DNA of 63,709 bases, filler included, from Rhabdomonas costata (lineage: Eukaryota): assembly GCA_019059605.1 (NCBI GenBank). It is 52 parts of 52 records of this genome, joined end to end, with 100 filler letters (N's around TTAATTAATTAA, not from the genome) between each part and the next. Parts side by side here need not be neighbours in the genome. Positions count along the whole stretch, not along the records: positions 49,083 to 50,209 come from JAHMHO010027266.1; positions 50,310 to 51,438 come from JAHMHO010027267.1; 50 more parts are not named here. One strand, given 5' to 3'. The translations under genes were made by a program, and so were the position numbers. The notes under the pieces were generated by a model that was given only the letters and a program-made list of their open reading frames with translations, was not told the origin of the DNA and did not search any database. Shown in pieces: positions 14,251-59,299 of the stretch (position 1 is its first letter; every line of letters begins with the position of its first letter).

Positions 14251-14485
14251 GAGGTAACACCGGCCGCGCTGAAAGTGATGCTGGCGTCTCCGTGGCTTCG
14301 GAAGGAAGGTTGGCTTGTGTCGGACGTCATAGGCCACTCTGTCCGCCCTTATGGGGTGGCGATGCTGATCTCCCCGCGGCTGCCGCTCGAGAGCCTGACC
14401 TTTGTGCGGCTACCCACGAAGATGGCTCGAATGGGGCTTGTGGCAAGCTTCCGCGACGCTGCCTCCTCCCGGCAAATTATTCTTG
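14251..14485 (+). CDS. Exon of an EEP-superfamily (TDP2-like) endonuclease/phosphodiesterase
   Basis: cag|EVTPAALKVMLASPWLRKEGWLVSDVIGHSVRPYGVAMLISPRLP...LPTKMARMGLVA. The (Q)EVT, PYGV and LPT.M.R motifs match. Confidence 0.65.
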
Positions 14486-19462: not shown

Positions 19463-20871
19463 CTGAAAATAGGAAAGAATTTTGACATCTGCTCATAAGA
19501 AAGTTCATCAAAACTGAAACGCTCAATTTTACAAAAAAAACCNNNNNNNNNNNNNNNNNNNNNNNNNNNNNNNNNNNNNNNNNNNNTTAATTAATTAANN
19601 NNNNNNNNNNNNNNNNNNNNNNNNNNNNNNNNNNNNNNNNNNAAGGAAGGAAGCTATCTCCCCACTTGATCGGCGTCACCCTCACCCCCTGAGAACGTGA
19701 ATGAGACCACTGGGACAGCACTGAAGCGAGCGCGAGCAGCGAAGCAAAACTTTGGGCAGCGTTCTGAACAAAAACAGCCAAACCTTTGCGCTGAACACAC
19801 AAGACTGCCTCGGTGAAAACACCTCAACTGAACGTTAGAAGAAGGAAAGAACGCGAAAGTCGAATCCAGAAAATTCTAAAGCAAAGCGAAACACCAGCAC
19901 AACAGGGGAGCGGAGGATCCAACCCACGGCACCTCGCCTGCTCGGATGCACGGGTGTGATTCTACTCCGAGGTCTCACGAAAACAGGTCCGACCCCAGAT
20001 GCGTGCCTTTTTTTGTCAGCACTCGTCTGACTGAAGAGGTAAAACCACCAACTTCCAAGGGCAAAGGATGATCAGGATGGCGAAAGAACGAAAGAACAAC
20101 AAGCTGGGACCCTGGCTTTCTCTCTCAATGCAAAATGCAAAAATAAAAGAGAGAGTAGCACTGCGATGCAGACCAATCGTCGAGCCATGACTTGGGCTAA
20201 ATCCCTTCATCGTACTCTTTCTTTCGAGACTTTTTAATAAACAAAAGGAACCGGAGGAAAAGGGAAACACGCCAGGCAGAGAAACAAGCCCGCCGTGCAA
20301 AAATAAACGAGAAAAGCAAGGCCGCTGGACTTGAAAAAAAAACTAAGCACACAACATCCACGATCATTCGGATGCAGAACCCATCCCATACGGGCTCCAA
20401 AACACAACGCCGCAGTCAAGCGCGTCCGTTTGCCAACATCCCGCTTCCAGTCCTCCTCACTCTCCCCATAGTGCACATATCGGTGGCGGTAATGGTACGG
20501 TGGTTCGAAGCCCGTGCCCCCTGCTTTGCTCTCTCTCTCTCCTCACCCGTATCAGCATACGCCCCCACAAGGACTGCTGTTGTCCCGTCCACATGGTCCA
20601 CATGGGCACCATTCACTCCTCTCTCTCAACCTTCCATCAATTCCAAGCGATACGCTAACAGTGGGAGAAGGCTGCTCACTCCCCACCGGAGGAGAGCGAG
20701 TGGCCAGCGATCCCCCCTCGCCTTCCTCGGGGCCCTCGCTGCTGGTGTCCTCTCCGTCCTCCCCCACNNNNNNNNNNNNNNNNNNNNNNNNNNNNNNNNN
20801 NNNNNNNNNNNTTAATTAATTAANNNNNNNNNNNNNNNNNNNNNNNNNNNNNNNNNNNNNNNNNNNNGGTG

Positions 20872-21032
20872 GTGGTTAAGATCAGATAATCAGAATCCGG
20901 AGGGCGTGCTATCACAAACTAAAAAAGATGATTGGCAGTAGTCGACGAGAACACGGCGCGACAGACTGCCAATCATCTTTTTTAGTTTGTGATAGCACGC
21001 CCTCCGGATTCTGATTATCTGATCTTAACCAC
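20872..21032. repeat. Perfect ~68-bp inverted repeat at the contig start (probable amplification fold-back)
   Basis: 20872-20939 is the reverse complement of 20965-21032. Confidence 0.9.
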
Positions 21033-24000
21033 GTACCCTCCCACCTACTATAGCACCTCCTTAAGCATCAACTTTCCAGTTTGAGGGCATCACCCCTTCC
21101 CGCCACAAGCCTTGTGCTGATTTTGCTTTTCTTTCCGCACTGATGCGACAAAAAAAAGCAAGCCGAAATGTTCAGGTTTCGTAAATATAAAATAAATGAT
21201 TACTGCAGCCAGCTCCCCTGTGAAACAACCCCGTCAGCTCATAAAATTACAAGCCCCCTAACTTGAGAAAGACCCTTTCATAACAAGGCGATCTATATGA
21301 GAAAAAAAGGTGTGCACACCTGTGGCAAAGTGTAACTCGAGCACAAGAAAGGTTCTGTGGAGGAACGGGGCGCGGGTTGCCAGGCCACCAGCACCCCTTC
21401 CTCTGAAGTGCCGCGGCGGAGCACCAGCCCAGGGCTACAGGGCAACCAGCCTTCCACCTTTCAGTGGGTGACGTGTATTTTGAGTGCACGGCGCACTGAC
21501 TGATGCGGAGGTGAGGGCCAATTGTCTTCTGCGCTAGTGACCTGAGCACAGTCGGCTTTGGTGCAAGGCACATCCGCTGCTCAGTGGCCACAAAACGGTC
21601 AACCCCGCATCCCCAAAGTCCTCTGACTGGATTACGACAACTCTAACGTCTTCACTTGGAAATGCTGTGTGAACCAATATCGGGAAAAAAACTTCCGCCC
21701 AACACATCGTCTCCACTTTCACAGCCACCGCCAACAACCATACCCGAAACCGGGGACTTCTCTCGAAGAAGCTTAGCAACGGTATAAAAGGAAAAGATAG
21801 CAACTGACTAGCCCCCCCACAAGAAAGTCCGAGGTAAAACATGAAAGTAAGGCAGAAAGACAAACCGCTGTAAGGACCACTAAGCAACCCCGCTCACTTG
21901 ATCACAAACATTACAATATAACTCTCCTCTGATTCCACTCTCACCATGGGCACACCTGCGCCTTCACGGCCTCTGTGACCAGCACGGGCGCTCCNNNNNN
22001 NNNNNNNNNNNNNNNNNNNNNNNNNNNNNNNNNNNNNNTTAATTAATTAANNNNNNNNNNNNNNNNNNNNNNNNNNNNNNNNNNNNNNNNNNNNCCGGCC
22101 AGAAGGTCCACGGGGGAGAGCAGGTGCGGGCCAGTGGGGTCGTCGTGGTTCCCGTGCAGGGTGAACACTGGCAGGGCGACGTTCAGGTTGGGGTCCTCGA
22201 AGTTGGCGCACCCAAACTTCGACGCAAGAGACTTCGTCTGCGATTAGGAAAGGGGGAAACGAGGCTTCCCGCCAGACGGTAAACGTTGCTGATTCTGATA
22301 GAGATTTCTTCATCGCGCTCACCTTTGCTCAATGGAAACCGGGTGTGGGTTTCAAGTGCACAGAATGGGAATCGACTGAGTTCTCCTTCCCTCCTTTCAA
22401 GGGGAGGACTTGGTCTAAATGTCCAGGACCTCAATGACGCCGCTTGCCCGCTCCCTCTGATATGGCAGTGATGCGACTTGGGGAGGCTCCCGTGTGGTCC
22501 GTCAGTTCCCCAGTCACTACTACGTACTCAGCAGATGATGCCTCTCCCTTTTTCTTACTCCCTTTTATTCTCTTACTCCCATTTACCACTCACCCTTTTT
22601 CGGTTCACGACATCCTTTCTATGCCCTGCAGCTTAAGAACATCTCACTGACAAACACCAATCACGGAAAGAGCTCCTCACTGGCTCTCGCAACAAACGGA
22701 AAAACAAGCATTGCACCACGCCCGACATCTGTCTCCGGGGCGAATGCGTTTCACAGTGGGCTGTGCTGCGGTGTGATGCTGTAGTTTGTGCAGGAAGACC
22801 CGGTCGCCGTGGACAACAAAGCGGATGTCCCGGTCCCCCATGCAGTATTCCCGCAGCAGCTCCATCGTCTTGTGCAGGGTAAACTGCGAGGGCTTGTTCT
22901 CGTGGAAGACTAGGTAGGTAGACGGTAGGCGGCAGGGAGTGAGGGAACAGGGGATCATTGCAACGATGGAGAGGGGACCGCGGCTACCTTTTTCCGGAAA
23001 CTTTTTTCTTAGGAGTTGCGCCCCGAAACTCAATGAAACGTATGTGACCCAACATACTTGCCACCCTCTTCAACAGGATGATGATATGATTTCGGGATTC
23101 TCCATTTTCGGTCGCACCCGTGTCCACGGAAGGTCTGGCTTTGTGTTGCTAAGCCCCGCAGGCGCGAGTTTTCTGCTCGGTGAGCATAAAAAAGTCGAAA
23201 AAAAACAACAACAATTCCTTCNNNNNNNNNNNNNNNNNNNNNNNNNNNNNNNNNNNNNNNNNNNNTTAATTAATTAANNNNNNNNNNNNNNNNNNNNNNN
23301 NNNNNNNNNNNNNNNNNNNNNGTGGGGTTGGAGTCTAGTCTCTTTGTAGTTGAGGTGGTGGTGGGGCTTCTTAAAAGGTTAGCTGTGTACACGTTTATTT
23401 TTTTTTCGACCTATTCTACAATTATGTGGATCTGTAAGAGCAGTGTGCATTGCAAAAGATTCATTCTGAGGTGGTTGACACCCGTGCCCTGAAATAGAAA
23501 TATCGACCAGCAATCCGAATTCTGATAATATACAAAACCAGAGATGGTTGATGTTTCCTCCCACCAAAATGCAGTTGTCTCAAAGAACTGATCCTATGCA
23601 AACGGGTGCAACGTTTGTTCCTTCTTTAAATATGGCTGTGGGGTCGGTTTGGTCTCCTCCGCTTCTCTGATTTAGGGGAAGAGGAGCTGAAGTGGGGTTC
23701 TGCCCCCACCTCGGCCCCGGTGGCGGGTCCCGGCAGCAAAAGATCGCGGTCCAAGTCCGCGGCCGCGGCGTCCTCCACGGCACACCTCTCCGCCCGTGAG
23801 GGCAGCGAGTGCAGCAGTGTGGCCTCCTCCGTGGGACAGGTTTTGGTCCCTGGCAGCCACAAAGTGGTGAAACGAGGGGTATGTATGTGAGAGCCGACAC
23901 TGATGCTCGCTTGGTACGTTGTAGTTCGTGAGCGCCCGTTTCAGCACTTGTCCGGCGGTGAACCATTGCCTGCGCGTGCCTCTTGGTGAACAGTCAATTT

Positions 24001-35900: not shown

Positions 35901-37009
35901 ATGCCAACAACCTCCAGGTCATCGGCACTACGGCAAGACGATGGGTCGAAGAAGATCTTGCGCACTTCTCCAGTCACAGAGACGTACAACGCGTCCCCGA
36001 AGAGGGCGTCATCCATCCAAATGCCTTAATGAAGAGTCCATGCGCCGATGAAACATTCAGCCGTTAACTCCATCGCGTACCGAATCTGGAAAGTTTTCCT
36101 TTTGGATGCTTTTGGTTGGAAGAAAAGCGTAGCAAGGAGCGACCCCCCCCATTCTCGCGCCAACTGGGCGTTCGGACGGCGGCGGAGGCGGACTTAGCAT
36201 TGCTGGGACTGTGCTTGCCGGGAAAACGCACACAGCCTCTTTCGAGCCAAAAAGCCACGGAAACCTGGGTGGTGAGCACCCTGCACTCCTGCTCCAACAG
36301 AAGCCCTCACCACAAAAAACAGTACGCCACACAACAACAACCTGTGCATTTATCACCCGACGGGTACGTGAACGTCGCAGCGCCGTGACGGTTGTTCTCG
36401 TGCCATTGCCCTGGGAGAACGCGGAAGTTGCATTTTCGTTTGGCACCCAACCAACCAGAAATCACGGGATCCAAGAAGAATAATGCCGCATTCTGGAGAC
36501 GGAAAACGTCCAACAATATGCGACCAAGGTGCCCACACCGTCATAGCAGGAGCCGTCAACATCAGTGAAGCATCCGCGGCCGTGGCGAAGCCCGCGGAAG
36601 AAGCTTCCTTCGTACCTGAGAAATCCCCACCACCAAGCGGGGCCACTTCGAGAAGGCAGCAGAGCAGTACAGATCAAACCGTCAAGAAGGAAGGCAGGGC
36701 CCCCAACCACNNNNNNNNNNNNNNNNNNNNNNNNNNNNNNNNNNNNNNNNNNNNTTAATTAATTAANNNNNNNNNNNNNNNNNNNNNNNNNNNNNNNNNN
36801 NNNNNNNNNNTGCACGGGGAGGCGACCGACGGGGGCCGCCATCACACACATGGCGCCTTGGCGCGGTGTGCTGTGGCGTGTCCTTGTGCTGTTTGTTCTG
36901 CACACCTGTTGGTTTTTGGCGCGTTCACGGTGCTGCTGTTCGTGCTGGACGACACGAAGGGCATTGGGGGGAGGGTGTGCGCCGTGCCCATCCACACACA
37001 CACACAGCG

Positions 37010-37472
37010 CGCGACAAAGGCCCGGGACCCGTGGGGCAGAAGGAGGTTACCAGATGTAGAGTCTTCGGCGGTGATGTGCTGGCACGGCAACGCCTGTAGG
37101 TAGATACGCTGCTGCCCGTTCACCCATCCAAAAGAAAAGCTCAAGGGTCTTTTCCACGAGAAAAAGCCCAGCCCCCCAAGCAAGGAGTGTGGAGTCGCAG
37201 AGACCTGAGCCGCAATGGAGCAATGCAGTTGGCCGCTGGGAAGAGCAGCTGCGCGACAAAGGCCCAGGACCCGTGGGGCAGAAGAGAGGTTACCAGATGT
37301 GAAACGTTCGGCGGTGAGCCGGTTCCGGTTCCCGCGGAACCATTCGCTCCAACGGCACCTCTCGCGAGAACGCGTGGCCAACAGCGCGTGTGCCAGTAAG
37401 TCCACAGTGGTCACCAACAACCAAGCAACCAGGCAATCAGGCAACGGCCAGCGCGCAACGCTCCCAACACAC
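37010..37472 (+). repeat. Repeat family A, longest copy, between (CA)n tracts
   Basis: Matches 8133-8380 and 24200-24450. Contains a duplicated ACAAAGGCCC.GGACCCGTGGGGCAGAAG..GAGGTTACCAGATGT. Confidence 0.9.
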
Positions 37473-37751: not shown

Positions 37752-37911
37752 ACTTCTCGGCCAAGACGGCGTTGCGGTTGTGGGCTCTCTGCATGTTCTC
37801 ATCCACCAGGCTGACGGGCATGTAGAAGTCCAGGTGGAAGGCTAGGATGATCCTCGAGAGAAGCACAATGAAGATCACAAACGCCGCGTTCTCGAAGTCC
37901 GTCATCTGCAC
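37752..37911 (-). CDS. GCLC: Glutamate-cysteine ligase catalytic subunit exon
   Basis: cag|VQMTDFENAAFVIFIVLLSRIILAFHLDFYMPVSLVDENMQRAHNRNAVLAEK matches eukaryotic GCLC Q.TDFENAA...VDENM..A..R.AV. Confidence 0.93.
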
Positions 37912-38039
37912 CTGTGGTGCCGCATGAGCACACAAAACCNNNNNNNNNNNNNNNNNNNNNNNNNNNNNNNNNNNNNNNNNNNNTTAATTAATTAANNNNN
38001 NNNNNNNNNNNNNNNNNNNNNNNNNNNNNNNNNNNNNNN

Positions 38040-38975
38040 TGGGTGGGCGCCTCCGCTCTTCCGGCTATCTCAGCCCGAAGAGCGGAGGCGCCCTCCCACC
38101 AGTCAGACCCGAGATGAAGCCTCAACATTCTCAGGTTGGGGCCCTTGCATACTTGCACCAAGGTGCGCCTCGTGGCTGGGCAAGAGCTAATATCCTGGAG
38201 AGATAGGTCCGTGAGTGTCGAGCACAAAGGAAGGACGCGCTCCAACGTTCTCAAAGCGATTCCATCAACGTCGCAAAGCCTCAGGCTCAGCCTCTTCAGT
38301 GTGGGGATGTTATTCAAGAAGCCAAGTGCGTCCCCGGGCAGGATGTCTCTCCCAGGGTGCAAAGCTAGGGATGTCAGGGATGAGAACCGGCCGCAAGAGC
38401 GCAGCAGGTGGTCCAGAGCTCGCTTGGTCTCTTCCTTCTCCGTTGGCATGCAATATGTAACGAGGCTCAAAGAAACCAGCCTCACCCCCACCGATTCCAA
38501 GGAAACCGCATTTTCCATCGATAAGCACCGGACTTTCACGCTCAGAGAGCGCATGCACAGTGATCTGCATACCCCGAAGCAGTCCTGACCTGAAAGATGG
38601 TCAACATCAATGCTTGCAGAACAAAGTGAAGGAAACTGTTCCAGGGGACCAACCAGCCTTGTCCACGAGTCCTTCCCAGCCCTGTCCTGAAAGGAAAAGG
38701 TCAGCAGAGGAAGCGAGGGATGTTCCAGCAAAAAATGAAGAAAACCATCCTCACCGCTCCTCCGCCCAAAAAACGACTGAACGATGACGCTGATGCCGTG
38801 GAACTGAAGTCCTGACCGAAGTAGAGAGAGCAGGTCGTCCACGTGGTCGTAAAAGTACTTTACGAAGAGGTACCGGTGGTGATGAAGGGAGTGCCACAAC
38901 CGACAAACCAGGCAAACGGTCCTGTGGCTTCGAACGAACCCGAACACGGCTTCAAGGCAGTCCACCGGAAGAAGT
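38040..38975 (-). CDS. F-box/LRR-like protein, long uninterrupted ORF (partial)
   Basis: About 310 open codons. N-terminal DCLEAVFGF...VCLVCRLW is F-box-like, followed by LxxLxL repeats (SSLTSLALH, PTLKRLSLR, TLTDLSL). Confidence 0.65.
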
Positions 38976-40971
38976 GAGAGGGATGCACCCTTCTGTTCGA
39001 AAAAGAGTTTGCGTGGAAACGAAGAGCACCGGCATATCGAGGCAGTTTAAGGTATTTCAAAAGCGCAAGTTTCTTGCCCAAATCAAGAAGTGTATCAAAA
39101 AAGTTGGCAAGGGCAAACCAATGGTGCTGAAACTACTTCAGTTTCAGCACCATTGGTTTGCCCAAANNNNNNNNNNNNNNNNNNNNNNNNNNNNNNNNNN
39201 NNNNNNNNNNTTAATTAATTAANNNNNNNNNNNNNNNNNNNNNNNNNNNNNNNNNNNNNNNNNNNNTTGTGTGTGTATCATGATGCTTTGCGAAAAGAAA
39301 CAGGCCGTTTTAGTTGCGAAGTCAAGAAAGAACAGAATGGATTTGGAACTGGAAGAGCCACCGCACTTGAATTTGTGTTCACCGAAGCTTTTCCATGAAA
39401 TGTGGGCATGTGGGCCGTTGGTTTTGTTTCGGGCTGTTTGTTTGTTTGTTTCGTTTCAGCGAGCAACTGGCTTCCCTACTGGTTCATGGGTGTTTCCGGT
39501 CAAGAGCAGCGGAGAGGAGCATTGTCGCAGGCCTTTTTCAGGTACGCTGGTGTTTTCTGCGTCGAGAGCATTTTTGACCTGTTTTGTCTATTTCTGTTGC
39601 GTTTGCTGGCGTTGGATTCAACAGAGAGAAAGCCCAATCAGGCATCGTTTGGGAGAACTGCCGAGAGTCAATGCCTGGCTTCGGTTGCTTCGTCTTCGCG
39701 TCGTGTGGGTGTGACATGTCAACCTCTGCCTGAGGTCTCTGTGATAATTCTGTTTCAGTTCACTATTTTTGGGTTTGGGGGTTTTGGGTTTTTTTGGGAT
39801 GGCTTTTGCTTTTGTATTGCATCGATATCCTAGCTGTGCTTTTTTGATGCAACAGATTGATCGGAGGACCACCGCCGAGCCTGTTTTTCATTCGCTCGTG
39901 ACTTCCCCATTCAGCCCGCGCATGCTTGCCACCGAGTGCGTGCGCTTTGCCGACGCGGCTGGAATCAACAGCTCCCCCGCGGTGTGTGGGCTGGGTGTTG
40001 AAAAGTGTGTGTGGGGGGGGGAGATAAACCTTTCTCAGAATCCATCTTAAGTTTCGCGACTGCTCGAGACTCGGATCATCTTGGCTTGGCCTTGTTCTCC
40101 TTCTCAACCACAGCACACCTGTGCAACTGTGCTGCCTTTCTCCTCCCTTTGTATAATAACACGCTGCGCCGGCCCTTCCACGCCGCCACCCTTTCGTTTG
40201 GGTCAGAGCCAAGAACGGGGTCGAGTATCATCTGCAAGCGGCGACGATGACAGCGTCGAGATAGCTGCGCTTTCGCGCGAGAGTGGCATTTGGCCGCCTC
40301 CCCAAGGGTGCATGCCGCTCTCCCTCCTTCATCCAAGTGTCTTGGTAGCTGCTTCCTTCTGAGAAGTATAACCATTCCTAGAATGGAGACCCCNNNNNNN
40401 NNNNNNNNNNNNNNNNNNNNNNNNNNNNNNNNNNNNNTTAATTAATTAANNNNNNNNNNNNNNNNNNNNNNNNNNNNNNNNNNNNNNNNNNNNTCCGGCT
40501 GAGCCACCAGATGGAGGAGGTTGCGGAGATGAACCTGGACGTTGTGAATCAGAAGCCGAGCCGCTTCAAGGAGATCGCGGACATCCAGGCGTTCTTTGGG
40601 ACGATGGTGAGCAAGCTGACGGTATGCCAGGCCACGTTCATCTTTTCCTCGATATGTGCTACATGGTGTGCGACCTTTTTGTGATTCTGATGACCCGTGA
40701 GTGGACATTAGTGGCGTCTTTCGTAGCTTCTCTCTATGGTTATCCTTTCTCGCTCGTCTAGTATATTGTTAAGTTCCCAGTTGTGCGGTACATCGCTGGT
40801 GTATGTGAGTTGTTTCAAGCAGTGGTGCTGCCCAGTTCTCGACTAGCATTATATGAGGCAGCGGCGTGGCATTATTTCCTAAGGCCCTACTGCCCAGGGT
40901 TCTCGTTAGTGGTTCCTTTGACCCCAACTGGAGTTACCACTGGAGCTTTGCTGTCGTCCTCCCGGCTGCAG

Positions 40972-41412
40972 GAGTTCCGAGCATACCTCCCGGAGGCCGT
41001 GCTGGGCTCCGCGGAGGGTCCCAACGAGGAGGTCGTAGGGGACCCTGAGGAGGCAGAGAAGCACGGCGAGCCCGAAAACGCCGGCAACAGCTTGCGCCGC
41101 GTCGCCCCAGCACCGCTCTCCGCCCGCCACTCCCAGTGCTCCCAGGAGGATCGTCCTGCTCCCGGAACATGCCGAAGCTCAGAGACCCTTGAGGGCGAGA
41201 CTCTCAAGCATCTCCGCACAGGGTCGCCACGGAGGAGCTCGCGGGGCTCTGTGATGCCCAAGTACCACGCTAATGTGAACCGGCAGGTCGGCGTGCTGAA
41301 CCACCGCATGGTCTCTGTGTTGCAGATGGACATTGGGGGGTTCCACCAGCTCCTCGACGATGAGACCGCGCTGATCTCCACGCACTCCTCTGTGATTCAA
41401 GCCACCAGCCAT
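40972..41412 (+). CDS. Exon leading into a class III adenylate/guanylate cyclase domain
   Basis: EFRAYLPEAVL...RMVSVLQMDIGGFHQLL matches the cyclase beta1 motif V(S/T)VL..DI.GF. Ends at a |gtacgc donor. Confidence 0.65.
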
Positions 41413-41948
41413 GTACGCTTGTGCGTTTCTCTTCTACCCGCGCGTATGCGCTGGCAAAGCCGTGCGACAGCTGCATGGGAATTATCACCACGTTTTTCAG
41501 AACTTCGTTTAAGAGGTTAGTTCGTTTTGCGTGGATTGGTTATGTTGGCTGGATTCCATCCTTGTTCACGTGTTTTGACCGGTGAGAGGGATCCAGCCAA
41601 CATAACCAATCCACACAACCNNNNNNNNNNNNNNNNNNNNNNNNNNNNNNNNNNNNNNNNNNNNTTAATTAATTAANNNNNNNNNNNNNNNNNNNNNNNN
41701 NNNNNNNNNNNNNNNNNNNNGGTGGGTTGTGGAGTTTTCTTCGATCTGCCCTAGCAGTGACAACCGTGTGAAGGATGTCCTTCACTGTGAGAGGGAAAGT
41801 TGACGTCGCAACGGGTGGTTGTGTACTACAAGTGCATGAAGAAGATGATATGGCTACGTGAATCATGGCAGTGGTTTTCATGCCAAAGCGGTGACGCAAT
41901 GTTGCCCCACCAACGGGATCCATGGAGGTAATTCGCATTTGCACCGGA

Positions 41949-49428: not shown

Positions 49429-50485
49429 TTTCACATCGTTTGGAACGGGCGGCTTCGATAAGGGCAACGAAGAAGGGAAGGAAAAAGCATCCGTAACAGT
49501 AGGTCAGCAAGCGACTCGGGCTCCCATGGAAAACGGGAAGAAGCTGACTGCTGAGTAAAAAAACAAGACTCTGTCCCCAAAATCCCGAAGAAGACACAGC
49601 AGTGCGCGGTGAAGTTCGGTAAGGCAACACACACAGTGAGTGGTGGTATGTTTGGTGTGAGTTGTATTACACGGGGGAGTTTTGAGTCTGTCAGTCACTC
49701 GTGGGGAAAATCATTTTTGGCAGAGCAACACTCCAAACACCCAACAACATCTGCTCATAACCAGCGCAATGGTATTAAACAGATGCGTTTACATAAACTC
49801 CTACTAATCTTTCCCCGGCTTCACTGCGCCAAAAAACCCTTTATCGGAAACCAAGAATAAGAAAGCACGTGAGGGCAGAACCACCCCCCGAAAATCTGAA
49901 TAAGGGCATCCTTGCGCAATTGCGCAGAGTTGTGAAACGTCGTCAAACCCATGTGGACTGAATGTGATTTCAAGACCAGAGGCCAGCCCATGCACCAGCG
50001 ATTGTTCACCATCCGCGCGAGCAATGAGGGCTTCACTTATGGGAGAGGAACGCTCCTGTGGCGTTGCCTTCGAACAGTAGAAACCGGGAGTGCAAGGGAA
50101 ACCCGGTGAATACCGCAGCGCCCCGCTCCAGGTGCACCACGCGGTTCATCGCGGCCATGTCGCAGACCTTCGCCCCGGGCCGCACGGCGCGCAGGGCATC
50201 CACCACCACNNNNNNNNNNNNNNNNNNNNNNNNNNNNNNNNNNNNNNNNNNNNTTAATTAATTAANNNNNNNNNNNNNNNNNNNNNNNNNNNNNNNNNNN
50301 NNNNNNNNNATGGTATTACATGTGATGATGCTGATGTTGATACGGATGTATGGCTATGACGATACGATGAATACCGCTACGAATGGCTAATGTGATGTTA
50401 ATGCTAAGAGTGTAATGGCTAAGGGAAGATGCCGAGATATAAAGGGAGAATAGGGCTAATGATGTACTGATACCACATTCCTAGC

Positions 50486-51160
50486 GTCACGGAGCCCACG
50501 AGAAGAAGAGATGTCGCTGCGCTCATTCACACACGCTCCGTCGCTCTGCTCCTATATGCTGAATTCACTACTCCGTGATTTTTGGGCCATCTCTCCGTGT
50601 GATCCCACTCCCATTCGCTACGCTCATGGTCGTGGGGCCACGGCGCTACACTCCTCGTTCCTCCGACATGTTGAACTCCCTACTCCGGTCATGTCACCTC
50701 CACGCTCCGGTTTCACTCCGTAAAGACTGATACCCCATGACCAGGAGCGCAGCTAGCGTAGAGATGATGACATGGGGTTACATGGGGTTAAGACACAGGA
50801 GCGCAGCGGGGAGATACGACCGGAAATAACAACATCCAGGAGGAACGAGGAGCGCAGCGAGTGACGATCTTGTAAATTGGGGGGCCCCATGGCATCAGCG
50901 TAGAGGAGATCAAGGGCTAGAATGCACGAAGCGTAGCGGAGTAGGAAGGTGGAGCGACGGCGTAGCCCCATCGAAATCAGGGACCCCATGATCGAAGCGC
51001 AGGGGCGCAGCGACAAAGCGATAACCTAAACAAGGGGCTCCACGACCATGAGCGTAGCGAATGGACGTAGTGAACGGAGGGATGGGCATCCGAAGCGTAG
51101 CGAGCATCTGCGAGCGGAGCGACATCTTAGCTTCTTCTTGTCGGGCCCCTCTCGTGCCCC
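50486..51160. repeat. Long imperfect nested inverted repeat rich in GCGNAGC motifs
   Basis: 50611-50635 is the exact reverse complement of 51040-51064. 50501-50524 pairs with 51112-51138, and 50644-50672 pairs with 50830-50859. Confidence 0.85.
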
Positions 51161-51538
51161 TCCCCAGTCATCACGCACTAATATTATCACGTTATCACGT
51201 TACGCGCGCGCTCACAGAATACAGTGGTAGTAGCGACGATGTCCTAGTGGAGTGAGGGCATGCGAGCGCAGTAGTGACATCGGGCTATCTTGAGGCATTT
51301 CCCAGGACTAGCCGTTGGAGGGCAGCTGGTGGTCTCAGGAGCAGTGGTGGTGCTATCGGAGCCCCTCAACCCCTACTTCCTCTCAACCTCTCTAAATCCC
51401 TTCCATGGGTTCGGTCGCGCAATTGCCACAGGTCTTAGNNNNNNNNNNNNNNNNNNNNNNNNNNNNNNNNNNNNNNNNNNNNTTAATTAATTAANNNNNN
51501 NNNNNNNNNNNNNNNNNNNNNNNNNNNNNNNNNNNNNN

Positions 51539-52469: not shown

Positions 52470-52772
52470 CTACAAAATGATAGGAAAAACCAAAGCAGAA
52501 GAGATTTCATACTCTCTCCGGAGAACTCCCTAAAGGAAAAATTCTGTTTCAATCTCTCCTTGTGTGTGAGTGTTTATCGAGCGGGAATGTTTCGGGAGTG
52601 AGAGGGTTCGATGAAATTTAGCCACTTACCCATTCACGTCACTTCTTCATCATAAACAACACCCCNNNNNNNNNNNNNNNNNNNNNNNNNNNNNNNNNNN
52701 NNNNNNNNNTTAATTAATTAANNNNNNNNNNNNNNNNNNNNNNNNNNNNNNNNNNNNNNNNNNNNTGTGTTG

Positions 52773-53355
52773 GGTCGCGGTTTTAAAAAAATGCAAGTTT
52801 TCCATGGAAGGCTATTGTAGGCCAAAAAATCGACTTTTTGGGTCATATCTCGGAGTAGGCGAATCCGTTTTTCTTCGTTGTTTTTGCGTTGATTGGGGCA
52901 TATTTAGGCCAATTTAGGGATGCTACACCCCCGGGGTGTGGTATTTCGGTATTCGGCACTTTTTCGAAAAATCGCGTTTTTGGGGGTCATTTTGGGCTCT
53001 AGGGCCCTTTGTATGGGAAAACGTCTATTTTCTCCAGGAGCCATGTTTTGGGAACCCGCTTGTGTACGTAGCACTGTCATGTGCACCAAATCATTATTTC
53101 GGGTTATGAATCGTCCAGCAGAGATGCAGAAAAACCGCATTTGCAGTCTCAGACCATGCGGGGGTACTCTCGGGGTGATGGTTATGGTCGCGGTTTTAAA
53201 AAAATGCAATTTTTGGGTCATATCTCGGAGTAGGCGAATCCGTTTTTCTTCGTTGTTTTTGCGTTGATTGGGGCATATTTAGGCCAATTTAGGGATGCTA
53301 CACCCCCTGGGTGTGGTATTTTGGTATTCGGCACTTTTTCGAAAAATCGCGTTTT
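52773..53355 (+). repeat. Direct repeat: ~145-nt block at 52836-52980 and 53211-53355, plus a 24-nt leader at 52773 and 53186
   Basis: TTTTGGGTCATATCTCGGAGTAGGCGAATCCG...TTTTTCGAAAAATCGCGTTTT is present twice, nearly identical. Confidence 0.92.
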
Positions 53356-53855
53356 TCCGCTTCTCAGGTTGCTTTGTATGGGCGTGCCGTAAATTTGTCG
53401 CGCTGGATGTCTTGAGCCGCGAAGCGGGTCAAGATCCAAGCAAAACCTGGCAGTTTACACACAACAGGATTCATCTTGCTCGCTATTTAGTATGATTATT
53501 CGCTATGTATCACACACCATCTTTGTTTACCTCCTTTTCTACAGTCAACAAAAAGAAGTTCAGCGTTCTACGACGATTCAACCAGAAAGCGACTTTGCCC
53601 TTACCAGTTTTTGGTCACTGACACGGAGGTCTCCTTTTCTAAAATGCAAAATTCACCCCAGACGATGCCAAACATGCAACTCTACAGTGGTAAAGAAAGA
53701 AGCCATTTCCATTTTTCCTAACTCTTTGCCAACGGAATAGATCTTCTGGATGTCTTGGGCCGCAAGCGGAGCGCGGCGGCCCAAGATCCTAGAACCCACT
53801 CTATTTAGTGCGCGTTAAACTGCGCACCGCCACGTGGCGACGCCCTGACTTCTTG

Positions 53856-53885
53856 TAACCCTAACCCTAACCCTAACCCTAACCC
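53856..53885 (-). repeat. Telomere-type (TTAGGG)5 repeat
   Basis: (TAACCC)x5 on the + strand at the contig end. Confidence 0.85.
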
Positions 53886-56800
53886 CAACCCCCNNNNNNN
53901 NNNNNNNNNNNNNNNNNNNNNNNNNNNNNNNNNNNNNTTAATTAATTAANNNNNNNNNNNNNNNNNNNNNNNNNNNNNNNNNNNNNNNNNNNNTGTTGGA
54001 ATGCGGGCAAGGGGGCTAGTGAAGAGCAGAAAGTGGGGGCGGGGGATAGGGAGTCCTCAGGCACGAAGGGCACAGAATCAGTAAGATCTCGGGTGCTTGA
54101 AAGATGCTTGTCCGTGAGAGGACGGGTTCTCCTTTGCCATGACTCTTTTGAAATTTGCGCGCCTCCGTCGCACACCGCCCCGCCCTCCCATCTGCCTCCC
54201 TGAAAACCTCGATGGACCACTTCCTTTGTGTTCAAATGCAAACTGCTCTGAATTACCAAAATCCAACCACCCCCCGCCCAAGCCCGAGATGCCATCACTG
54301 ACACGCGCACATCCCCCCGCGGTACACGTGCAAGCCGTTGTTCTGTTCGTACAGCCTTTTTTTCAGCATTGCCTTTCCTTTCTTTCCCGAACCAAAGTCC
54401 AAAAACTCTGACCCCAAAAGGGATGCCTGTCTGGAACCTTGGGCTGACCGTGGTTTTTGTAACCCTGCTGGTGGCCAGAGTGGATGCCAACCTTCGAGGT
54501 CCATCGCTCCCCACCACCACCACCACCACCACCTTGAGGTGGTTTCGCTTTCCTTCTCTTCCACTCGTAGAAGAAACAAAGCAAGACAAAATTTGTAAAG
54601 GCGGCATAAGTAGAGTGCAATAATAATAATAATAAAAACTGAGGGCACAACGGGAACCTGAAGTCAAGCAATCCTTCCTCTTTTACTTCCCAAAACCGAC
54701 CTCAACCCATACCGAAAAAAGGCCTCCTCACTGTAGGCCACTGTCACGTCACCACCACTCACCTCTCAGCCTGCAATGCAGAAGACGGTGGTGTGCAGTG
54801 CCGTTGGTACTGGCGGTCTACAAAGTCCCAATGGGATAACGGAGAAGACCGCGATAGTGGGCCCCCCACTCTCTGAATGGAGTAGGTAGCGCTCCTGCAT
54901 TCACGTCACTGTTCTGTGAATTCCGGCTCCGCTGCAAAAGTGAGTGTTTCTGGGTCCCGGTCAGCAGCATGAGACAACAAATAGATATCGAACACGCACA
55001 CTTCCGGATCTGCAGGAATGCAAGCGATTTGTGATGTCCTCTTTCTTCCTGACAGTTGCAACCATCGCAACCTGCAAAGAACAGGAGGTGAATATACAGT
55101 TGCCCACTCCCCCCCACAACNNNNNNNNNNNNNNNNNNNNNNNNNNNNNNNNNNNNNNNNNNNNTTAATTAATTAANNNNNNNNNNNNNNNNNNNNNNNN
55201 NNNNNNNNNNNNNNNNNNNNCAGAGCGACTGGAAATGGATTGAGGCACGGGAAATTTACAAGAGAACAATATCAAGAGCCGTCAATTGTTGAGTAAATCG
55301 AAAACAAATGAACCTTCGTATTCTGTCGGAAAAAATGGAATTTTCAGGGCAAATGTATATATCTAAAACAGTGGGGTATACGAACGAGCTCTGGTGGTGC
55401 TAACATGGACGCTAATGGTTTGCGCTCTTCCTTTTTGATGAACTTTTTTATGGGGCGCAAAACTACTCACAAGCGCCCCTCTTCAAAACAAAAAGGTAAT
55501 GATGCCTGAAAAGGAGTTCAATCACGGCCCCGGGAGCCCCGGTGGGTTGGCGGTCCCTGGCGGATTGCTCCCTCCCGTGCTGCCTGGTACTGGTCACCGT
55601 CGCCATGTGGGCCCTCTCCCGTCGCGTCATCAACCGCCTTACCCACGCCCTCCACGGCAACACCCGCGGTGTACACCACCACGCGCGGCGGGCACGCCAA
55701 TCCAAGGCGGCCACCCTCTCGCTGCCCACTCCCGGGACCCGGGGGTCCACCCCCCAGCCCTCCACCGCGCAACAGAGTGCCATCCTCGCTGGACGCCCCT
55801 CATCTCGGCGACGCTTCAGGCGGCTGGCTTCTCCCTCGCTGCTTCCTGCTTCCCAACGGAAGCCTTGGTGCACCTCACCCAGCGCCGGCTCTCCGCTTCT
55901 CCTTCTTCTGCTGTGCTGAGGGCGGTTGCGGCCACGCATGAAGTCTGCGACGATTGGCTGTGCCAGTCACCCACGCGCTGGGGCCCGGCCCCCGGCCGCT
56001 TCTGGCATAAGGCCGCCACTTATGCTTGGGGCGACCGATCGGCCGATAGCCGGGCGCACATCTGCGCCCCCTGATTGCGCTGCCTGCCCATGCGTCTGTG
56101 CTTTGTGCCGTTTTGGGAATTGAACACCTTCGGAGATGTTTTATTGTGTGGTCTGTGAATTTTGGAGTTCGACCTTATTCGCTGCGCTTGTCTCCTTATA
56201 TGTTTTTGGTGTTACTTCTGCTCTAGCCCCAGGGTTCCAATAAAGCATAAGTTTGAGCAATGCTGCAGTATAAGTACTTGCTGCGCCCCTCCCACAAGCA
56301 AACGAGATCCCCACAACTGGAGCTATATATCTATCAGGCACGTATGTNNNNNNNNNNNNNNNNNNNNNNNNNNNNNNNNNNNNNNNNNNNNTTAATTAAT
56401 TAANNNNNNNNNNNNNNNNNNNNNNNNNNNNNNNNNNNNNNNNNNNNCTGGAGCTGGGTGGCAACCCGTGGGCCTGCCGGCTGACCCTTCCTCCATGGGT
56501 GAAGACCCCCTGCAACGGTGTGCTTTTTTGTGGCCTGTTTTTTTTTTTCGCTTTTCTCTTTTGAATGCCGTTTTCCTCCATCCCTTTAATTAAGTTTGAG
56601 AATAATCCTTTTATGGTGTTCATCGGTGTTTGTATTCAACTGTTTTCGGCTTTTGCTGAGGTTATTGATCTCGCTAAGTGTTTTCAGACCTTTTTTATGG
56701 TGGAGGGGGTCTGGACACAGCCGCTTGCGAAGGGTCGTTCCGCAATGGGACGTGCTCTGCGAGCTGCGGCACGGGGTTCTACATTGCCACGTTTATCATC

Positions 56801-57875
56801 ACCAACCCCAGCACGGCCTATGCCTGTGGCTATGCCAACGGGACCACAATTCGGTCTTCGTGTTACCCCTTCTCCTGCGAATCGCCTCAAGGTTCTCGGC
56901 TGCTTCGCTGTTTGTGAAAAACAGGACGGTAACTACCTTCGGAGGCTTTTTCCTTTTAGGAGCGGTCCAGTTTTCTCCACCGCTGAGTTCAACGTGTGAG
57001 CAGGTGCAGTCGTTTGACAAGTATTAGAATTTGTGACAAGTGGTGTATTGGCCTCCACCTCCGAGCCTGGGCCGGAAGATATGAACACATATTGTTTGCT
57101 CCTGATTTCTCTGTCATGGGCCGGATGTGATGATATTTGGCACCTCGACGAAGCAGGTTTTCGAAGGGGCACATTCTTGCACATTCTCAGCCGACGAACA
57201 CGTGCAAGATGTTCCGTGTACCGCATACTTTCCAGTCTGTTTTTTAAAAGGTACGATCCCGAATGAGTGAGCATGCCTTTTGCAACCATTGCTCGATTGC
57301 TCGGTTGCGGTTTGACAAGTTGCATGCAATTCTGTTTCCTCAAAAAACAAGAAACGTGTATTCGAATTTTCCATTGATGCGGTAGATCGAAAGTTTTAAT
57401 ACCTGAGTGCGCATACGCCCCATGCCCCATTAGTTTTCAAACCCCTGAAGACAAAGCACAGTGTTCACGTCGGTGTACACCGGCAACCCATAGGCTCGGA
57501 CTCGTCGGCGACGACCATTGTGGTTTCTGTGACGGTTGGTATGGCGATCATCGCCATACCAACCGTCACCAAAANNNNNNNNNNNNNNNNNNNNNNNNNN
57601 NNNNNNNNNNNNNNNNNNTTAATTAATTAANNNNNNNNNNNNNNNNNNNNNNNNNNNNNNNNNNNNNNNNNNNNTGTTGTGTGTTCCTACCCTATTATCG
57701 AAAGTCGACGTCCAATGCAATTTCGTTTTTCCCCAACCTTGGGTTTCGGGATCATCACACTGGCTGGGGCACTGTCACACGAGATTTCGATAATAGGGTA
57801 GGAACACACAACTGCTCCTGCCCTGAAAAAGAGATCGTGGTATGCTCTGTGCGGTCTCTTGGCGCGTCAATGTAG

Positions 57876-58431
57876 GTTGCCAACAAGCTGCCTTGGAAGG
57901 CTGCCCTGCGGCGTGCCCGCTTCGTGTTATGTCCCCGGGGCTTTGGCCGCACCAGCTTCCGGCTCTACGAGGCGCTGCAGTCGGGGGCAATTCCTGTGGT
58001 CGTGTACGACGACGTATGCTACATGCATATGCACAGTCCCAGTTTGACTTACGCTGACTTTTTACTGTTGTGCGGCTTTAAGTTTGGTGCATAAAAAGTG
58101 TGAACCATCATGGTGGTGATCTAAAGGCAGGTGCAGGGTGCAGAGGATGGGGAAGCAGCGTGTAGAGGGCTGCTTTTGAGAAGGGCGGGGAAACCCTTCG
58201 AAGACGGTCTATACCCTTTGCTGAAACGGAGTGTATCAAACGGCAACTCAAAGTGCGGAGGCCTCCAAAAACCCAAACCGCACCACAGCAACAACTCATG
58301 TTTACAGAGAGACCAACCACCATCGCCTTAGCATCCCACCTGGGCTGGCGTTTGTTGGCATTGGCCCGGCATCCCAGATTTGCCATATTTATCATTCAGG
58401 TTCCTTGGCTGCCCTACGCCGGCACTCTGAG
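57876..58431 (+). CDS. Exostosin-family (GT47) glycosyltransferase, exons 57876-58013 and 58400-58431
   Basis: ALRRARFVLCPRGFGRTSFRLYEALQSGAIPVVVYDD|VPWLPY with a GT-AG intron. Confidence 0.88.
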
Positions 58432-59299
58432 GTGGCTCCCCCTGCCCCCCGCTCTTTCCGTTCAGTGTTTGCGCTTTGAACAGGCATACTGTAACGTAAA
58501 AAAAAAAAAAGTGAGCTGGAAAAGCCTTGGTACTGCAATAATTTTGGTTTTGGGTTGCAAGGGCTTATGCGTTTGGGGCCACATGGGGGCCACATGATAC
58601 ACTTGATCTATGGGGAGGCCACAGGATAAACGTGCGCCGGTCTTTTTTATACATAATTTAGGGCCATGAAATACGAATTTATGAGGATTCCGCACAGAGG
58701 CGGTAGCAGTGCTGCTTAAAAAGCCCTTGATATCTTGTAACCAGGGACCTTCCTCGGCCCTCGCCCCCCTCCGGACAGGTGGTCCGAGATCGCGGTGGTG
58801 GNNNNNNNNNNNNNNNNNNNNNNNNNNNNNNNNNNNNNNNNNNNNTTAATTAATTAANNNNNNNNNNNNNNNNNNNNNNNNNNNNNNNNNNNNNNNNNNN
58901 NACCGTGCTCTCTCGAAAACCTTCAGTGTTCATTCGATTTTTGCAGTTCCTATAGGCCTGCAAAGTGGAACCAAGGTGTCTTTCCCAACTGTATTTTCCG
59001 CGTCTCCCAGCTTACCCCATACGTTTTTACCGCACATCCCACCACATCCCGCTCATGCATTGGTGGAACAAAACCCGCTGTGAGCCTTGGCGGCGCCACA
59101 ATCACAGGGGTTAGAGGGTGACGCACGCTTTTTCCAGAAGGCTCGGGGTTAGGGCACCCTTCCCCTTCACGCCGGGGAAACGCCACACTCGGACTATTGC
59201 AGGCCTTTTTCTGGTGATTCGAATTCTACATTAAAATTTTTATAATATTCTGAAACGGAACACTAAGCAGTGTGTCGATATTCTGTTCTCTCTGGGCAG

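What the first reader, a model, noticed from the sequence alone, without database searches (positions are those of the whole stretch)
50310..51438. Alien contig: ~670-nt nested fold-back with strand-polarised GCGNAGC mini-hairpin motifs, a candidate organelle or plasmid origin region
Seen: no exons or polypyrimidine acceptors. About ten GCG(C/T/G)AG(C) motifs lie on + to the right of ~50730, and their complements (CGCT.CGC) lie to the left. The arms pair at several registers (exact 25 bp at 50611-50635/51040-51064; diverged pairs at 50501-50524/51112-51138 and 50644-50672/50830-50859). The arms are diverged, unlike the near-perfect amplification fold-backs elsewhere, so the structure looks evolved. 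Known: GC-GNA-GC forms very stable ssDNA mini-hairpins. Inference: a control or replication region of a mitochondrial mini-chromosome or extrachromosomal element. If the host is a euglenozoan, such mtDNA architecture is poorly known.
Basis: partly seen in the sequence, partly recalled or inferred. Interest (0 to 1): 0.7.

Follow-up and report, generated by a model that had tools for sequence, protein, structure and literature searches.

The report
Diverged fold-back repeat on orphan euglenid contig
A short, gene-less stretch of DNA from a euglenid genome draft really does fold back on itself and is studded with one short repeated word, but nothing available here shows that it is a mitochondrial or plasmid replication origin, so it is best read for now as an unusual non-coding repeat of unknown location.

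Summary
The window is 52 concatenated ~1.13-kb contigs, and the finding is one whole contig (50310-51438). It holds 11 GCGNAGC sites (0.76 expected), 9 on + right of 50730 and 2 on - to the left. Region 50488-51160 folds into a nested ~670-nt hairpin (z about -10 as DNA) with diverged arms, unlike the perfect-armed amplification snap-backs at the ends of nine other contigs. The repeated word is longer than the mini-hairpin heptamer: RAGCGYAGCG, often preceded by CCCAYG.

The host is a euglenid: an exon in the window is 98% identical to a Rhabdomonas costata protein. The contig's dinucleotide signature lies outside the range of the other 51 contigs, so "alien" is fair.

No positive evidence supports an organelle or plasmid origin. 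There is no gene or gene fragment under three genetic codes, no RNA family, no terminal overlap and no relative in any collection. GC is 54%, against 25% reported for Euglena gracilis mtDNA. Coverage and copy number could not be tested.

Best reading (0.35): an old inverted duplication of a short-motif array, a decayed fold-back-type repeat in nuclear DNA. Rivals: mitochondrial non-coding repeat region (0.22), foreign DNA (0.18), rDNA circle or other episome (0.08), chimera (0.05). Interest is modest.

The parts
50310..51438 (.). The whole orphan contig (1129 nt, 54.3% GC), bounded by assembly linkers. It has no G/T-only amplification tail at either end.
   Evidence: 10 of 52 contigs lack tails at both ends, and this is one of them. 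Its dinucleotide signature is outside the range of the other 51 contigs.
50310..50487 (+). Left flank. It is C-poor (12-17% C), rich in ATG/GATG words, has no ORF, and carries one stray CGCTACG word at 50375.
   Evidence: TpA o/e is 1.30 and ApT is 1.69.
50488..50735 (-). Left arm of the fold-back. It is pyrimidine-rich on + (purines 0.34-0.45) and carries the motif in complement: exact 10-mers at 50515 and 50616, and a one-mismatch copy at 50644.
50699..50809 (.). Turn region between the innermost arm pairs. It holds a local hairpin (CCCCATG at 50733 against CATGGGG at 50771 and 50781) and the 10-nt tandem ACATGGGGTT x2.1 at 50770-50790. GC is about 0.54, so it is not A+T-rich.
   Evidence: (I10, I11).
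50765..51160 (+). Right arm. It is purine-rich (0.60-0.71) and carries 9 GCGNAGC sites on +: 50747, 50801, 50852, 50931, 50960, 51005, 51052, 51095 and 51114.
50860..51035 (+). A 176-nt stretch of the right arm with no counterpart in the left arm (4 nt on the left, 50640-50643). It holds three further motif copies, so it is read as a later gain of units or a loss on the left.
   Evidence: Spacing of the colinear pairs I1 and I2; motif positions.
50611..50639 (.). Best-kept arm block, left copy. It pairs with 51036-51064 (29 nt, 97%, 25 exact) and contains the composite unit CCCACGACCATGAGCGTAGCG in complement.
51036..51064 (.). Best-kept arm block, right copy.
50644..50673 (.). Inner arm block. 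It pairs with 50830-50859 (30 nt, 83%).
50491..50524 (.). Outer arm block. It pairs with 51112-51149 (38 aligned columns, 82%). No target-site duplication is seen outside it.
   Evidence: flanks read.
50734..51002 (+). Span holding the three + strand copies of the composite repeat CCCAYG-N4-8-AGCGYAG (50734-50752, 50886-50903, 50985-51002). A fourth copy lies on - at 50618-50636, and a one-mismatch copy sits around 51040-51056.
   Evidence: 4 of 4 window matches lie in this contig, against 0.06 expected..
51161..51438 (+). Right flank. It holds a short imperfect palindrome around AATATT (51167-51198), the tandem TTATCACG x2.4 (51184-51202), degenerate motif copies (GAGCGCAGTAGTGAC from 51264, GTAGCGAC at 51230), and no ORF with any match.
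   Evidence: (I6).

Best explanation
The contig is natural non-coding DNA recovered with a euglenid (Rhabdomonas costata or a very close relative).

Its core, 50488-51160, is an old inverted duplication of an array of a short composite repeat (CCCAYG, 4-8 bases, then RAGCGYAGCG). After the duplication the two arms drifted apart to about 81-83% identity in the alignable blocks. One arm gained, or the other lost, about 176 nt of further units. The strand polarity of the GCGNAGC word follows from this inverted duplication and is not a separate signal.

I read it as a decayed fold-back-type repeat: an inverted mini-array like the arms of foldback transposons, or like the MITE-like hairpin elements proposed for euglenids. 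It most likely sits in nuclear DNA and has no demonstrated function. As duplex DNA it could extrude a cruciform, and if transcribed it would give a long hairpin RNA.

Shown: the structure, the repeat content, the lack of coding, and the host taxon. Inferred: the origin by inverted duplication, the nuclear location and the absence of an origin function.
For: - The fold-back is real and colinear in three or four nested blocks, with fold z-scores of -7.65 to -10.8.
- The arms are built from the same short words in opposite orientation.
- Arm divergence has transitions about equal to transversions (22:20) and many indels. That is what neutral decay of a duplication gives, not compensated base-pair change.
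- The best-kept block is the composite repeat unit itself.
- GC of 54.3% is close to the 51.6% reported for the R. costata genome draft (PMC8219788 Table 1, passage).
- The 51 other contigs look like non-coding nuclear DNA of the same host: 1 of the 75 longest ORFs scanned had a secure Pfam match. The prior for any contig is therefore nuclear.
- No mitochondrial gene or fragment, RNA family, tRNA or terminal overlap was found.
- Hairpin-ended, MITE-like elements are a discussed feature of euglenid nuclear genomes (PMC12501133, Discussion passage).
Against: - The dinucleotide signature is outside the range of all 51 other contigs in all three parts of the contig. TpA is 1.05 against 0.54 +/- 0.11 (max 0.76). 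ApT is 1.34 against 0.80 (max 1.11). ApA/TpT is 0.71 against 1.29 (min 1.02). This holds after masking the motif.
- The contig is rank 1 of 52 in 3-mer distance.
- Two other repeat-bearing contigs whose values one search lists keep the nuclear-like TpA depletion: 52766-53893 at 0.70 and 12281-13405 at 0.63.
- No target-site duplication is visible at either candidate outer boundary (read).
- No second copy occurs among the other 51 contigs, although 58 kb is a tiny sample of the genome.
- There are no tandem subrepeats of the kind typical of classical foldback arms.
- Location, copy number and transcription are all untested.
Confidence: 0.35

Rival explanations
1. Non-coding repeat region of the host's mitochondrial genome. 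Euglenid mtDNA is described as a pool of short, recombination-prone linear molecules carrying repeats. The fold-back and its one-strand array of mini-hairpin-capable words would act in replication priming, recombination or end maintenance.
For: - The contig's composition is foreign to the 51 nuclear-looking contigs.
- It is wholly non-coding and repeat-built.
- It has no amplification tail at either end, as expected when many overlapping amplicons cover a high-copy template. However, 9 other contigs share this.
- E. gracilis mtDNA is described as short linear molecules with terminal repeats and gene fragments (PMC4700960 and PMC4806707, passages).
- The mitochondrial gene contigs of R. costata are short (644-764 nt in the rows seen) despite k-mer coverage of 46-56, and had to be extended by hand, which fits breaks at repeats (PMC8219788, section 8 read in full, Table S7 rows).
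- GCGNAGC mini-hairpins occur at primase-dependent ssDNA origins (PMC13037366, passages).
Against: - No mitochondrial gene or fragment: 0 of 23 frames under TGA=W, TAG=Y reach a Pfam cut-off.
- The 296-aa open frame under that code has no relative among 1.84 billion representatives.
- GC is 54% against 25% G+C stated for E. gracilis mtDNA. The value for R. costata is unknown to me.
- The turn region is not A+T-rich.
- N=A, the most stable mini-hairpin, is used in 0 of 11 sites.
- Conservation extends outside the hairpin positions. This points to a sequence word rather than selection for hairpin stability.
Confidence: 0.22
2. Foreign DNA. The contig is a non-coding piece of another organism present in the non-axenic culture or the sequencing run (another eukaryote, less likely a bacterium or virus), unrelated to the euglenid.
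For: - The dinucleotide and 3-mer signature is unlike every other contig in the window.
- The species' published genomic sample is stated to contain bacterial DNA, and bacterial contaminants were removed from its transcriptome (PMC8219788, passages).
Against: - A 1.1-kb bacterial or viral stretch with no ORF above 90 aa in six frames would be unusual.
- There is no match in plasmids or phages by blastn.
- No exact 21-23-mer match was found in prokaryote genome contigs, viral contigs or metagenome contigs. Exact-word scans only find near-identical DNA.
- None of the other 51 contigs looks bacterial.
Confidence: 0.18
3. Spacer of a host episome, for instance the intergenic spacer of the extrachromosomal circular rDNA that euglenids carry. 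The motif array would be a set of protein-binding sites (promoter, terminator or fork-barrier repeats, or an origin).
For: - Euglenid rDNA is extrachromosomal and circular (PMC9082867, abstract passage).
- From general knowledge, not from a call: rDNA spacers in many eukaryotes hold oriented arrays of short protein-binding repeats.
- A GC near 54% and the lack of TpA depletion would not be odd for rDNA. This is my inference and was not tested.
Against: - There is no rRNA match anywhere in the contig, even at E up to 10.
- The spacer would have to exceed 1.1 kb.
- A high-copy circle would be expected to assemble into a longer contig.
- No sequence of a euglenid spacer was available for comparison.
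Confidence: 0.08
4. Amplification or assembly chimera. Two diverged genomic copies of a repeat were joined head to head by template switching during whole-genome amplification or by the assembler.
For: Nine of the other 51 contigs carry inverted self-matches at their ends. The three inspected are snap-backs next to G/T-only primer tails, so this data set is prone to inversion chimeras.
Against: - The three snap-backs inspected by eye have near-perfect arms and sit at contig ends beside the tails.
- This one is internal, has three to four colinear blocks at 82-97% identity, a 176-nt one-sided stretch and its own turn region.
- A chimera would need two diverged but colinear copies joined exactly at a symmetric point.
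Confidence: 0.05

Closest known systems
Foldback-type transposable elements and MITE-like hairpin elements, including those proposed as the source of euglenid nonconventional introns
   Same: A non-coding element of a few hundred bases whose two halves are inverted copies built from short repeated words. It is able to fold into one long hairpin. Inverted-repeat, MITE-like elements are discussed for Euglena (PMC12501133, Discussion passage).
   Different: - There is no target-site duplication and no second copy in the 58 kb available.
- The subrepeats are irregularly spaced rather than tandem.
- The arms are only about 81-83% alike.
- There are no flanking exons, so the intron signature N3-CDG...CH'G-N5-6|R could not be applied.
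- The description of classical Drosophila-type foldback arms is recalled, not taken from a call.
Repeat-bearing short linear mitochondrial DNA molecules of Euglena gracilis
   Same: The same host group. That DNA is described as recombination-prone short linear molecules with terminal repeats and non-functional gene fragments (PMC4700960 and PMC4806707, passages).
   Different: - That DNA is stated to be 25% G+C, while this contig is 54%.
- No gene fragment is present here.
- I saw no sequence or motif of the E. gracilis repeats, so no direct comparison was made.
Mini-hairpin DNA d(GCGNAGC) at single-strand replication origins (phage G4 group, ssiA of RSF1010)
   Same: The heptamer GCGNAGC occurs 11 times. 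All four N give mini-hairpins with Tm 70-76 C (PMC13037366, passages).
   Different: - Those origins hold one or a few hairpins inside a defined ssDNA origin next to known genes.
- Here N is never A.
- The conserved word is wider (RAGCGYAGCG) and two AGCGTAG copies lack the closing C.
- In the long fold the sites are paired with the opposite arm instead.
- The folding model used gives isolated heptamers 0 kcal/mol, so it cannot judge them.
Whole-genome-amplification snap-back palindromes in the same window
   Same: Both are inverted repeats in contigs of the same data set.
   Different: The three inspected have near-perfect arms, lie at contig ends and adjoin G/T-only primer tails. This one is internal, diverged and multi-block.

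Membership tests
Foldback / MITE-like transposable element | Two terminal arms that are inverted copies of each other | tested here: met
   There are three colinear inverted blocks (29 nt at 97%, 30 nt at 83%, 38 columns at 82%) and a global arm identity of 81%.
Foldback / MITE-like transposable element | Target-site duplication flanking the arms | tested here: not met
   No shared short direct repeat lies outside either candidate boundary (about 50488/51160, or 50495/51144). This was read and could have been erased by age.
Foldback / MITE-like transposable element | Multiple dispersed copies in the genome | not testable with these tools
   0 of 51 other contigs share it, but no genome is held for this window.
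Foldback / MITE-like transposable element | Arms made of tandem subrepeats (classical foldback elements; feature recalled) | tested here: not met
   Tandem Repeats Finder finds only three micro-duplications of 8-11 nt. The motif copies are irregularly spaced.
Euglenid mitochondrial DNA | Carries a mitochondrial gene or a gene fragment | tested here: not met
   0 of 23 frames under TGA=W, TAG=Y reach a Pfam cut-off. Nothing was found under codes 11 and 4. There is no rRNA or tRNA.
Euglenid mitochondrial DNA | Base composition like known euglenid mtDNA | tested here: not met
   The contig is 54.3% GC, against 25% G+C stated for E. gracilis (PMC4700960). The value for R. costata is not known to me.
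Euglenid mitochondrial DNA | Read depth well above nuclear contigs | not testable with these tools
Published values are k-mer coverage 46-56 for mitochondrial contigs and a 10-20x genome estimate.
Circular plasmid or minicircle | Contig ends overlap, or a replication gene is present | tested here: not met
   There is no direct self-match between the ends at E <= 1e-3, no ORF with any family match and no hit in 72,556 plasmids.
Mini-hairpin ssDNA origin signal | GCGNAGC or GCGNNAGC heptamer/octamer present on one strand | tested here: met
   There are 11 sites, 9 of them on + in the right arm.
Mini-hairpin ssDNA origin signal | Lies in a replicon that passes through a single-stranded stage, at a mapped priming site | not testable with these tools
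   The replicon is unknown and there are no neighbouring genes.
Amplification snap-back artefact | Near-perfect arms at a contig end beside a primer tail | tested here: not met
   The fold-back is internal and diverged, and the contig has no tail.
Known RNA family (Rfam 15) | Covariance-model match at the gathering score | tested here: not met
   The only match is SNORD74 at 19.2 bits against a gathering score of 41, E 0.25, at 50311-50376. The whole window has no match at gathering.

The most novel reading that the evidence does not exclude
The contig is part of the non-coding constant or end region of a GC-neutral mitochondrial mini-chromosome of a rhabdomonad euglenid. When the purine-rich arm is exposed as single-stranded DNA during replication, it presents about nine GCGNAGC mini-hairpins that exclude single-strand binding protein and mark priming sites, as proposed for phage G4-type origins. 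The long imperfect fold-back serves as the recombination or resolution site that keeps the pool of short linear molecules going. That would be the first sequence-level view of a replication or maintenance element in euglenid mtDNA.
Probability: 0.1. Interest if true: 0.7.

Novelty: new member of a known kind. Interest (0 to 1): 0.3.

Why it matters
How euglenid mitochondrial genomes replicate and keep their many short linear molecules is unknown. Only a handful of gene-bearing pieces are described for this species. If this contig proved to be mitochondrial, or from the rDNA circle, its oriented motif array and fold-back would be a concrete candidate cis-element to test.

If it is nuclear, it is one more hairpin-forming repeat in a lineage where such elements are suspected to seed nonconventional introns. 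That would be useful for repeat annotation but not surprising.

The practical result here is a warning. The striking strand polarity of the motif follows from an inverted duplication. The mini-hairpin reading rests on a heptamer that is only part of a longer conserved word.

Tried and rejected
RNA genes
- Rfam on the contig at E up to 10 gave only SNORD74 at 19.2 bits against a gathering score of 41.
- The whole window has no match at gathering and no tRNA or tmRNA.

Coding
- ORFs were read under code 11, code 4 and code 4 with TAG=Y.
- Pfam on 10 and then on all 23 frames of at least 20 codons gave nothing above any cut-off; the best was FdhE_central at 16.7 bits against 27.
- The 296-aa frame that opens under TGA=W, TAG=Y had 0 hits among 1.84 billion representatives. 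It also had 0 among shorter proteins of the 5.8-billion collection. With TAA as the only stop, such a frame is unremarkable.

DNA relatives
- blastn against plasmids and phages gave no match.
- Exact 21-23-mers from the best-kept arm and the right flank gave 0 matches in metagenome contigs, prokaryote genome contigs and viral contigs.

Motif-array patterns
- They gave 42 viral loci and at least 121 metagenome loci.
- The four loci I read are perfect tandem repeats with periods of 18, 27, 27 and 51 nt.
- blastn of the contig against all 162 stored loci found nothing longer than 26 nt. I treat them as unrelated.

Other copies and earlier notes
- No other copy lies in the window.
- Earlier notes of this scan held nothing by place, sequence or words.

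Ideas considered by eye and dropped
- A CRESS-virus-like nonanucleotide (TGGTATTAC at the contig start, TAATATTAT near 51181; consensus recalled from memory). Dropped because there is no Rep ORF and no stem-loop around them.
- A covalently closed hairpin telomere. Dropped because the arms next to the turn would then be perfect.
- A kinetoplastid-type minicircle. Dropped because no conserved-block match was seen by eye.
- A CCCCATG enrichment in the window as a whole: 11 against 10.3 expected, so not significant, although 5 of the 11 are in the contig.

RNA-level selection
- The - strand folds 16.6 kcal/mol better as RNA.
- Arm differences are not transition-biased (22:20), so I draw nothing from this.

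Could not be done
- Whole-genome search, sequencing runs and read depth and cluster-member look-up.
Full report
WHAT THE WINDOW IS. The 63,709 bases are not one locus. They are 52 contigs of 1117-1129 nt joined by N runs around TTAATTAATTAA. Forty-two of the 52 contigs carry a roughly 10-nt G/T-only stretch at the 5' end, its A/C-only complement at the 3' end, or both: both in 21, one in 21, none in 10. I read these as remnants of degenerate amplification primers. The finding, 50310-51438, is one whole contig of 1129 nt, so its neighbours in the window say nothing about its genomic context.

HOST. Of the 75 longest ORFs of the window scanned against Pfam, one has a match above the curated cut-off. 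It is a glutamate-cysteine ligase exon at 37753-37938 on the minus strand (PF03074, E 3.4e-20), followed by a GT intron start. A second match, zf-C3HC4_4 at 19.7 bits, is below its cut-off of 30. The 62-aa exon translation is 98% identical to one EukProt protein, RCo034750, and the next hits are 76% or lower. The full-length protein has no other relative above 51% identity. The prefix RCo is the one used for Rhabdomonas costata transcript-derived proteins in PMC8219788 (26 occurrences; passages). For this species the paper reports:
- a whole-genome-amplified, very fragmented draft (N50 1194, 51.6% GC);
- bacterial DNA in one of the two genomic samples;
- mitochondrial gene contigs of high k-mer coverage (46-56 in the two rows I saw);
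- a mitochondrial code with UGA=Trp and UAG=Tyr.
These come from passages, section 8 read in full, and Table S7 rows.

THE OBSERVATION. It is confirmed.
- GCGNAGC occurs 54 times in the window (26.7 expected) and 11 of these are in this contig. In 1000 dinucleotide-preserving shuffles of the contig alone the mean was 0.76 and the largest count 4.
- All 9 sites right of 50730 are on + and both sites left of it are on -.
They form a colinear nest: 50491-50524/51112-51149, 50587-50639/51036-51085 with a 25-nt exact core, 50644-50673/50830-50859, and 50684-50698/50810-50824.
- Region 50480-51160 folds far better than shuffles. As DNA it gives -155.1 kcal/mol (z -9.7) on + and -153.1 (z -9.6) on -. 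As RNA it gives -304 (z -7.65) on + and -320.6 (z -10.8) on -. None of 20 shuffles did as well in any of the four runs. The hairpin persists when the whole contig is folded.

NOT AN AMPLIFICATION ARTEFACT OF THE USUAL KIND. Ten of 52 contigs give an inverted self-match at E <= 1e-3. In the nine others every match lies at a contig end. The three I read (20868-21050, 14420-14633, 41500-41620) are near-perfect snap-backs next to the primer tails. Here the structure is internal. The arms are 81% identical over 226 aligned positions, with 192 gap columns. One arm holds 176 nt (50860-51035) where the other has 4.

WHAT THE REPEATED WORD REALLY IS. The heptamer is part of a longer word.
- RAGCGYAGCG has 8 exact matches in the window, 7 of them in this contig. 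With one mismatch allowed, 12 of 29 are here: 3 on - in the left arm and 9 on + in the right.
- AGCGYAG occurs 12 times against 0.36 expected.
- Two AGCGTAG copies (50755, 50897) read GCGTAGA and so cannot close a mini-hairpin.
- N is C in 5, T in 5, G in 1 and A in 0 of the 11 sites. A is the most stable choice (Tm order A 76 C > G 73 > C 71 > T 70; PMC13037366, passage).
- Several copies are preceded by CCCAYG. The composite CCCAYG-N4-8-AGCGYAG has 4 matches in the window, all in this contig (0.06 expected), and the best-kept arm block is exactly this unit.
- The copies are irregularly spaced, and Tandem Repeats Finder sees only three 8-11-nt micro-duplications.

I conclude three things from this. 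The arms are arrays of a roughly 20-nt composite repeat. The polarity switch follows from the inverted duplication of that array. The pattern of conservation fits a sequence word, meaning shared ancestry or a protein-binding site, better than selection for mini-hairpin stability. The folding model cannot weigh mini-hairpins at all, because it gives isolated heptamers 0 kcal/mol. In the long fold the sites are paired elsewhere, several with the opposite arm.

IS THE CONTIG "ALIEN"? In composition, yes. It is rank 1 of 52 in 3-mer distance from the window mean. Three dinucleotides fall outside the range of all 51 other contigs:
- TpA 1.05 (others 0.54 +/- 0.11, max 0.76);
- ApT 1.34 (others 0.80, max 1.11);
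- ApA/TpT 0.71 (others 1.29, min 1.02).
The deviation is seen separately in the left flank, the fold-back and the right flank, and it survives masking of the motif. Two other repeat-bearing contigs whose values were listed keep the nuclear-like TpA depletion (0.70 and 0.63). This is the strongest point for a non-nuclear or foreign source. It is not decisive, because the whole contig is built of short biased words, and about 9% change per arm since the duplication is too little to have erased an element's own signature.

IS IT ORGANELLAR, A PLASMID OR AN ORIGIN? I found no positive evidence.
- No ORF exceeds 90 aa under code 11.
- Under the reported mitochondrial code only TAA stops translation, so long frames open by chance. 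None of the 23 frames of at least 20 codons reaches a Pfam cut-off.
- The 296-aa frame has no relative among 1.84 billion representatives or among shorter proteins of the 5.8-billion collection.
- There is no rRNA, tRNA or other Rfam family.
- The contig ends do not overlap.
- The turn region is not A+T-rich.
- GC is 54%, whereas E. gracilis mtDNA is stated to be 25% G+C (PMC4700960, passage). I do not know the value for R. costata.
- Nothing similar exists in 72,556 plasmids or 50,697 phage records.
- Exact 21-23-mers find nothing in the metagenome, prokaryote-genome or viral collections.
- Motif-array patterns found many loci. Those I read were perfect tandem repeats sharing only the GC-rich word.
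- Depth of coverage, other copies in the assembly and transcription, the tests that would decide, were out of reach.

READING. I commit to the following, at modest confidence. The core is an old inverted duplication of a composite-repeat array that has since decayed, with one-sided gain or loss of units. The contig is most likely a fold-back-type non-coding repeat in nuclear DNA (0.35). Hairpin-ended, MITE-like elements are discussed as a feature of euglenid genomes (PMC12501133, passage). The rivals are:
- a non-coding repeat region of the mitochondrial genome (0.22), which fits the composition outlier and the published picture of short, repeat-bearing linear molecules but not the GC content or the lack of gene fragments;
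- foreign DNA (0.18);
- the spacer of the extrachromosomal rDNA circle or another episome (0.08; PMC9082867, passage);
- a chimera of two diverged copies (0.05).
The remaining weight is for something not listed.

PAPERS. What I saw of each:
- PMC8219788: passages, sections 7 and 8 in full, and two rows of Table S7.
- PMC4700960, PMC8130358, PMC4806707, PMC9082867, PMC13037366 and PMC12501133: passages found by term search.
- The other titles: search listings only.
- The properties of classical foldback transposons, rDNA spacer repeat arrays and the CRESS nonanucleotide are recalled from general knowledge, not from a call.

VERDICT. Interest is modest until depth and copy-number data place the contig.

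Noticed in passing
window 12281-13405: This contig begins and ends with the same roughly 125-nt sequence (12281-12404 against 13279-13405, 96% over 127 columns). That could mean a roughly 1-kb circle or a tandem unit of about 998 nt. It also lacks amplification tails at both ends.
   Followed up: no
window 52766-53893: It holds a 158-nt direct repeat at 96.8% (52824-52981 and 53199-53356, 375 nt apart) plus a 24-nt exact pair (52773-52796 and 53186-53209), which looks like a satellite of about 375-410 nt period.
   Followed up: no
ends of contigs 1-1128, 6141-7268, 7369-8496, 13506-14633, 20868-21994, 38040-39166, 40494-41620, 56448-57574, 57675-58801: These are inverted self-matches at contig ends. 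The three read (20868-21050, 14420-14633, 41500-41620) are near-perfect snap-back palindromes beside G/T-only primer tails. They are amplification artefacts that inflate apparent inverted repeats in this data set.
   Followed up: partly
window-wide: contig ends: 42 of 52 contigs start with about 10 G/T-only bases, end with about 10 A/C-only bases, or both. These are untrimmed degenerate-primer remnants that should be masked before any composition or repeat analysis.
   Followed up: yes
window 37753-37938 (-): This is a glutamate-cysteine ligase exon (PF03074, E 3.4e-20) with a GT intron start. It is 98% identical to a Rhabdomonas costata transcript-derived protein and is what identifies the host. 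The intron region holds a 72-nt direct repeat at 89% (37005-37074 and 37246-37317).
   Followed up: partly
window 38042-39046 (-): A 335-aa open frame fills most of a contig. By eye it has a leucine-rich periodic pattern, but it has no Pfam match at E <= 0.001. It is possibly a lineage-specific exon.
   Followed up: no
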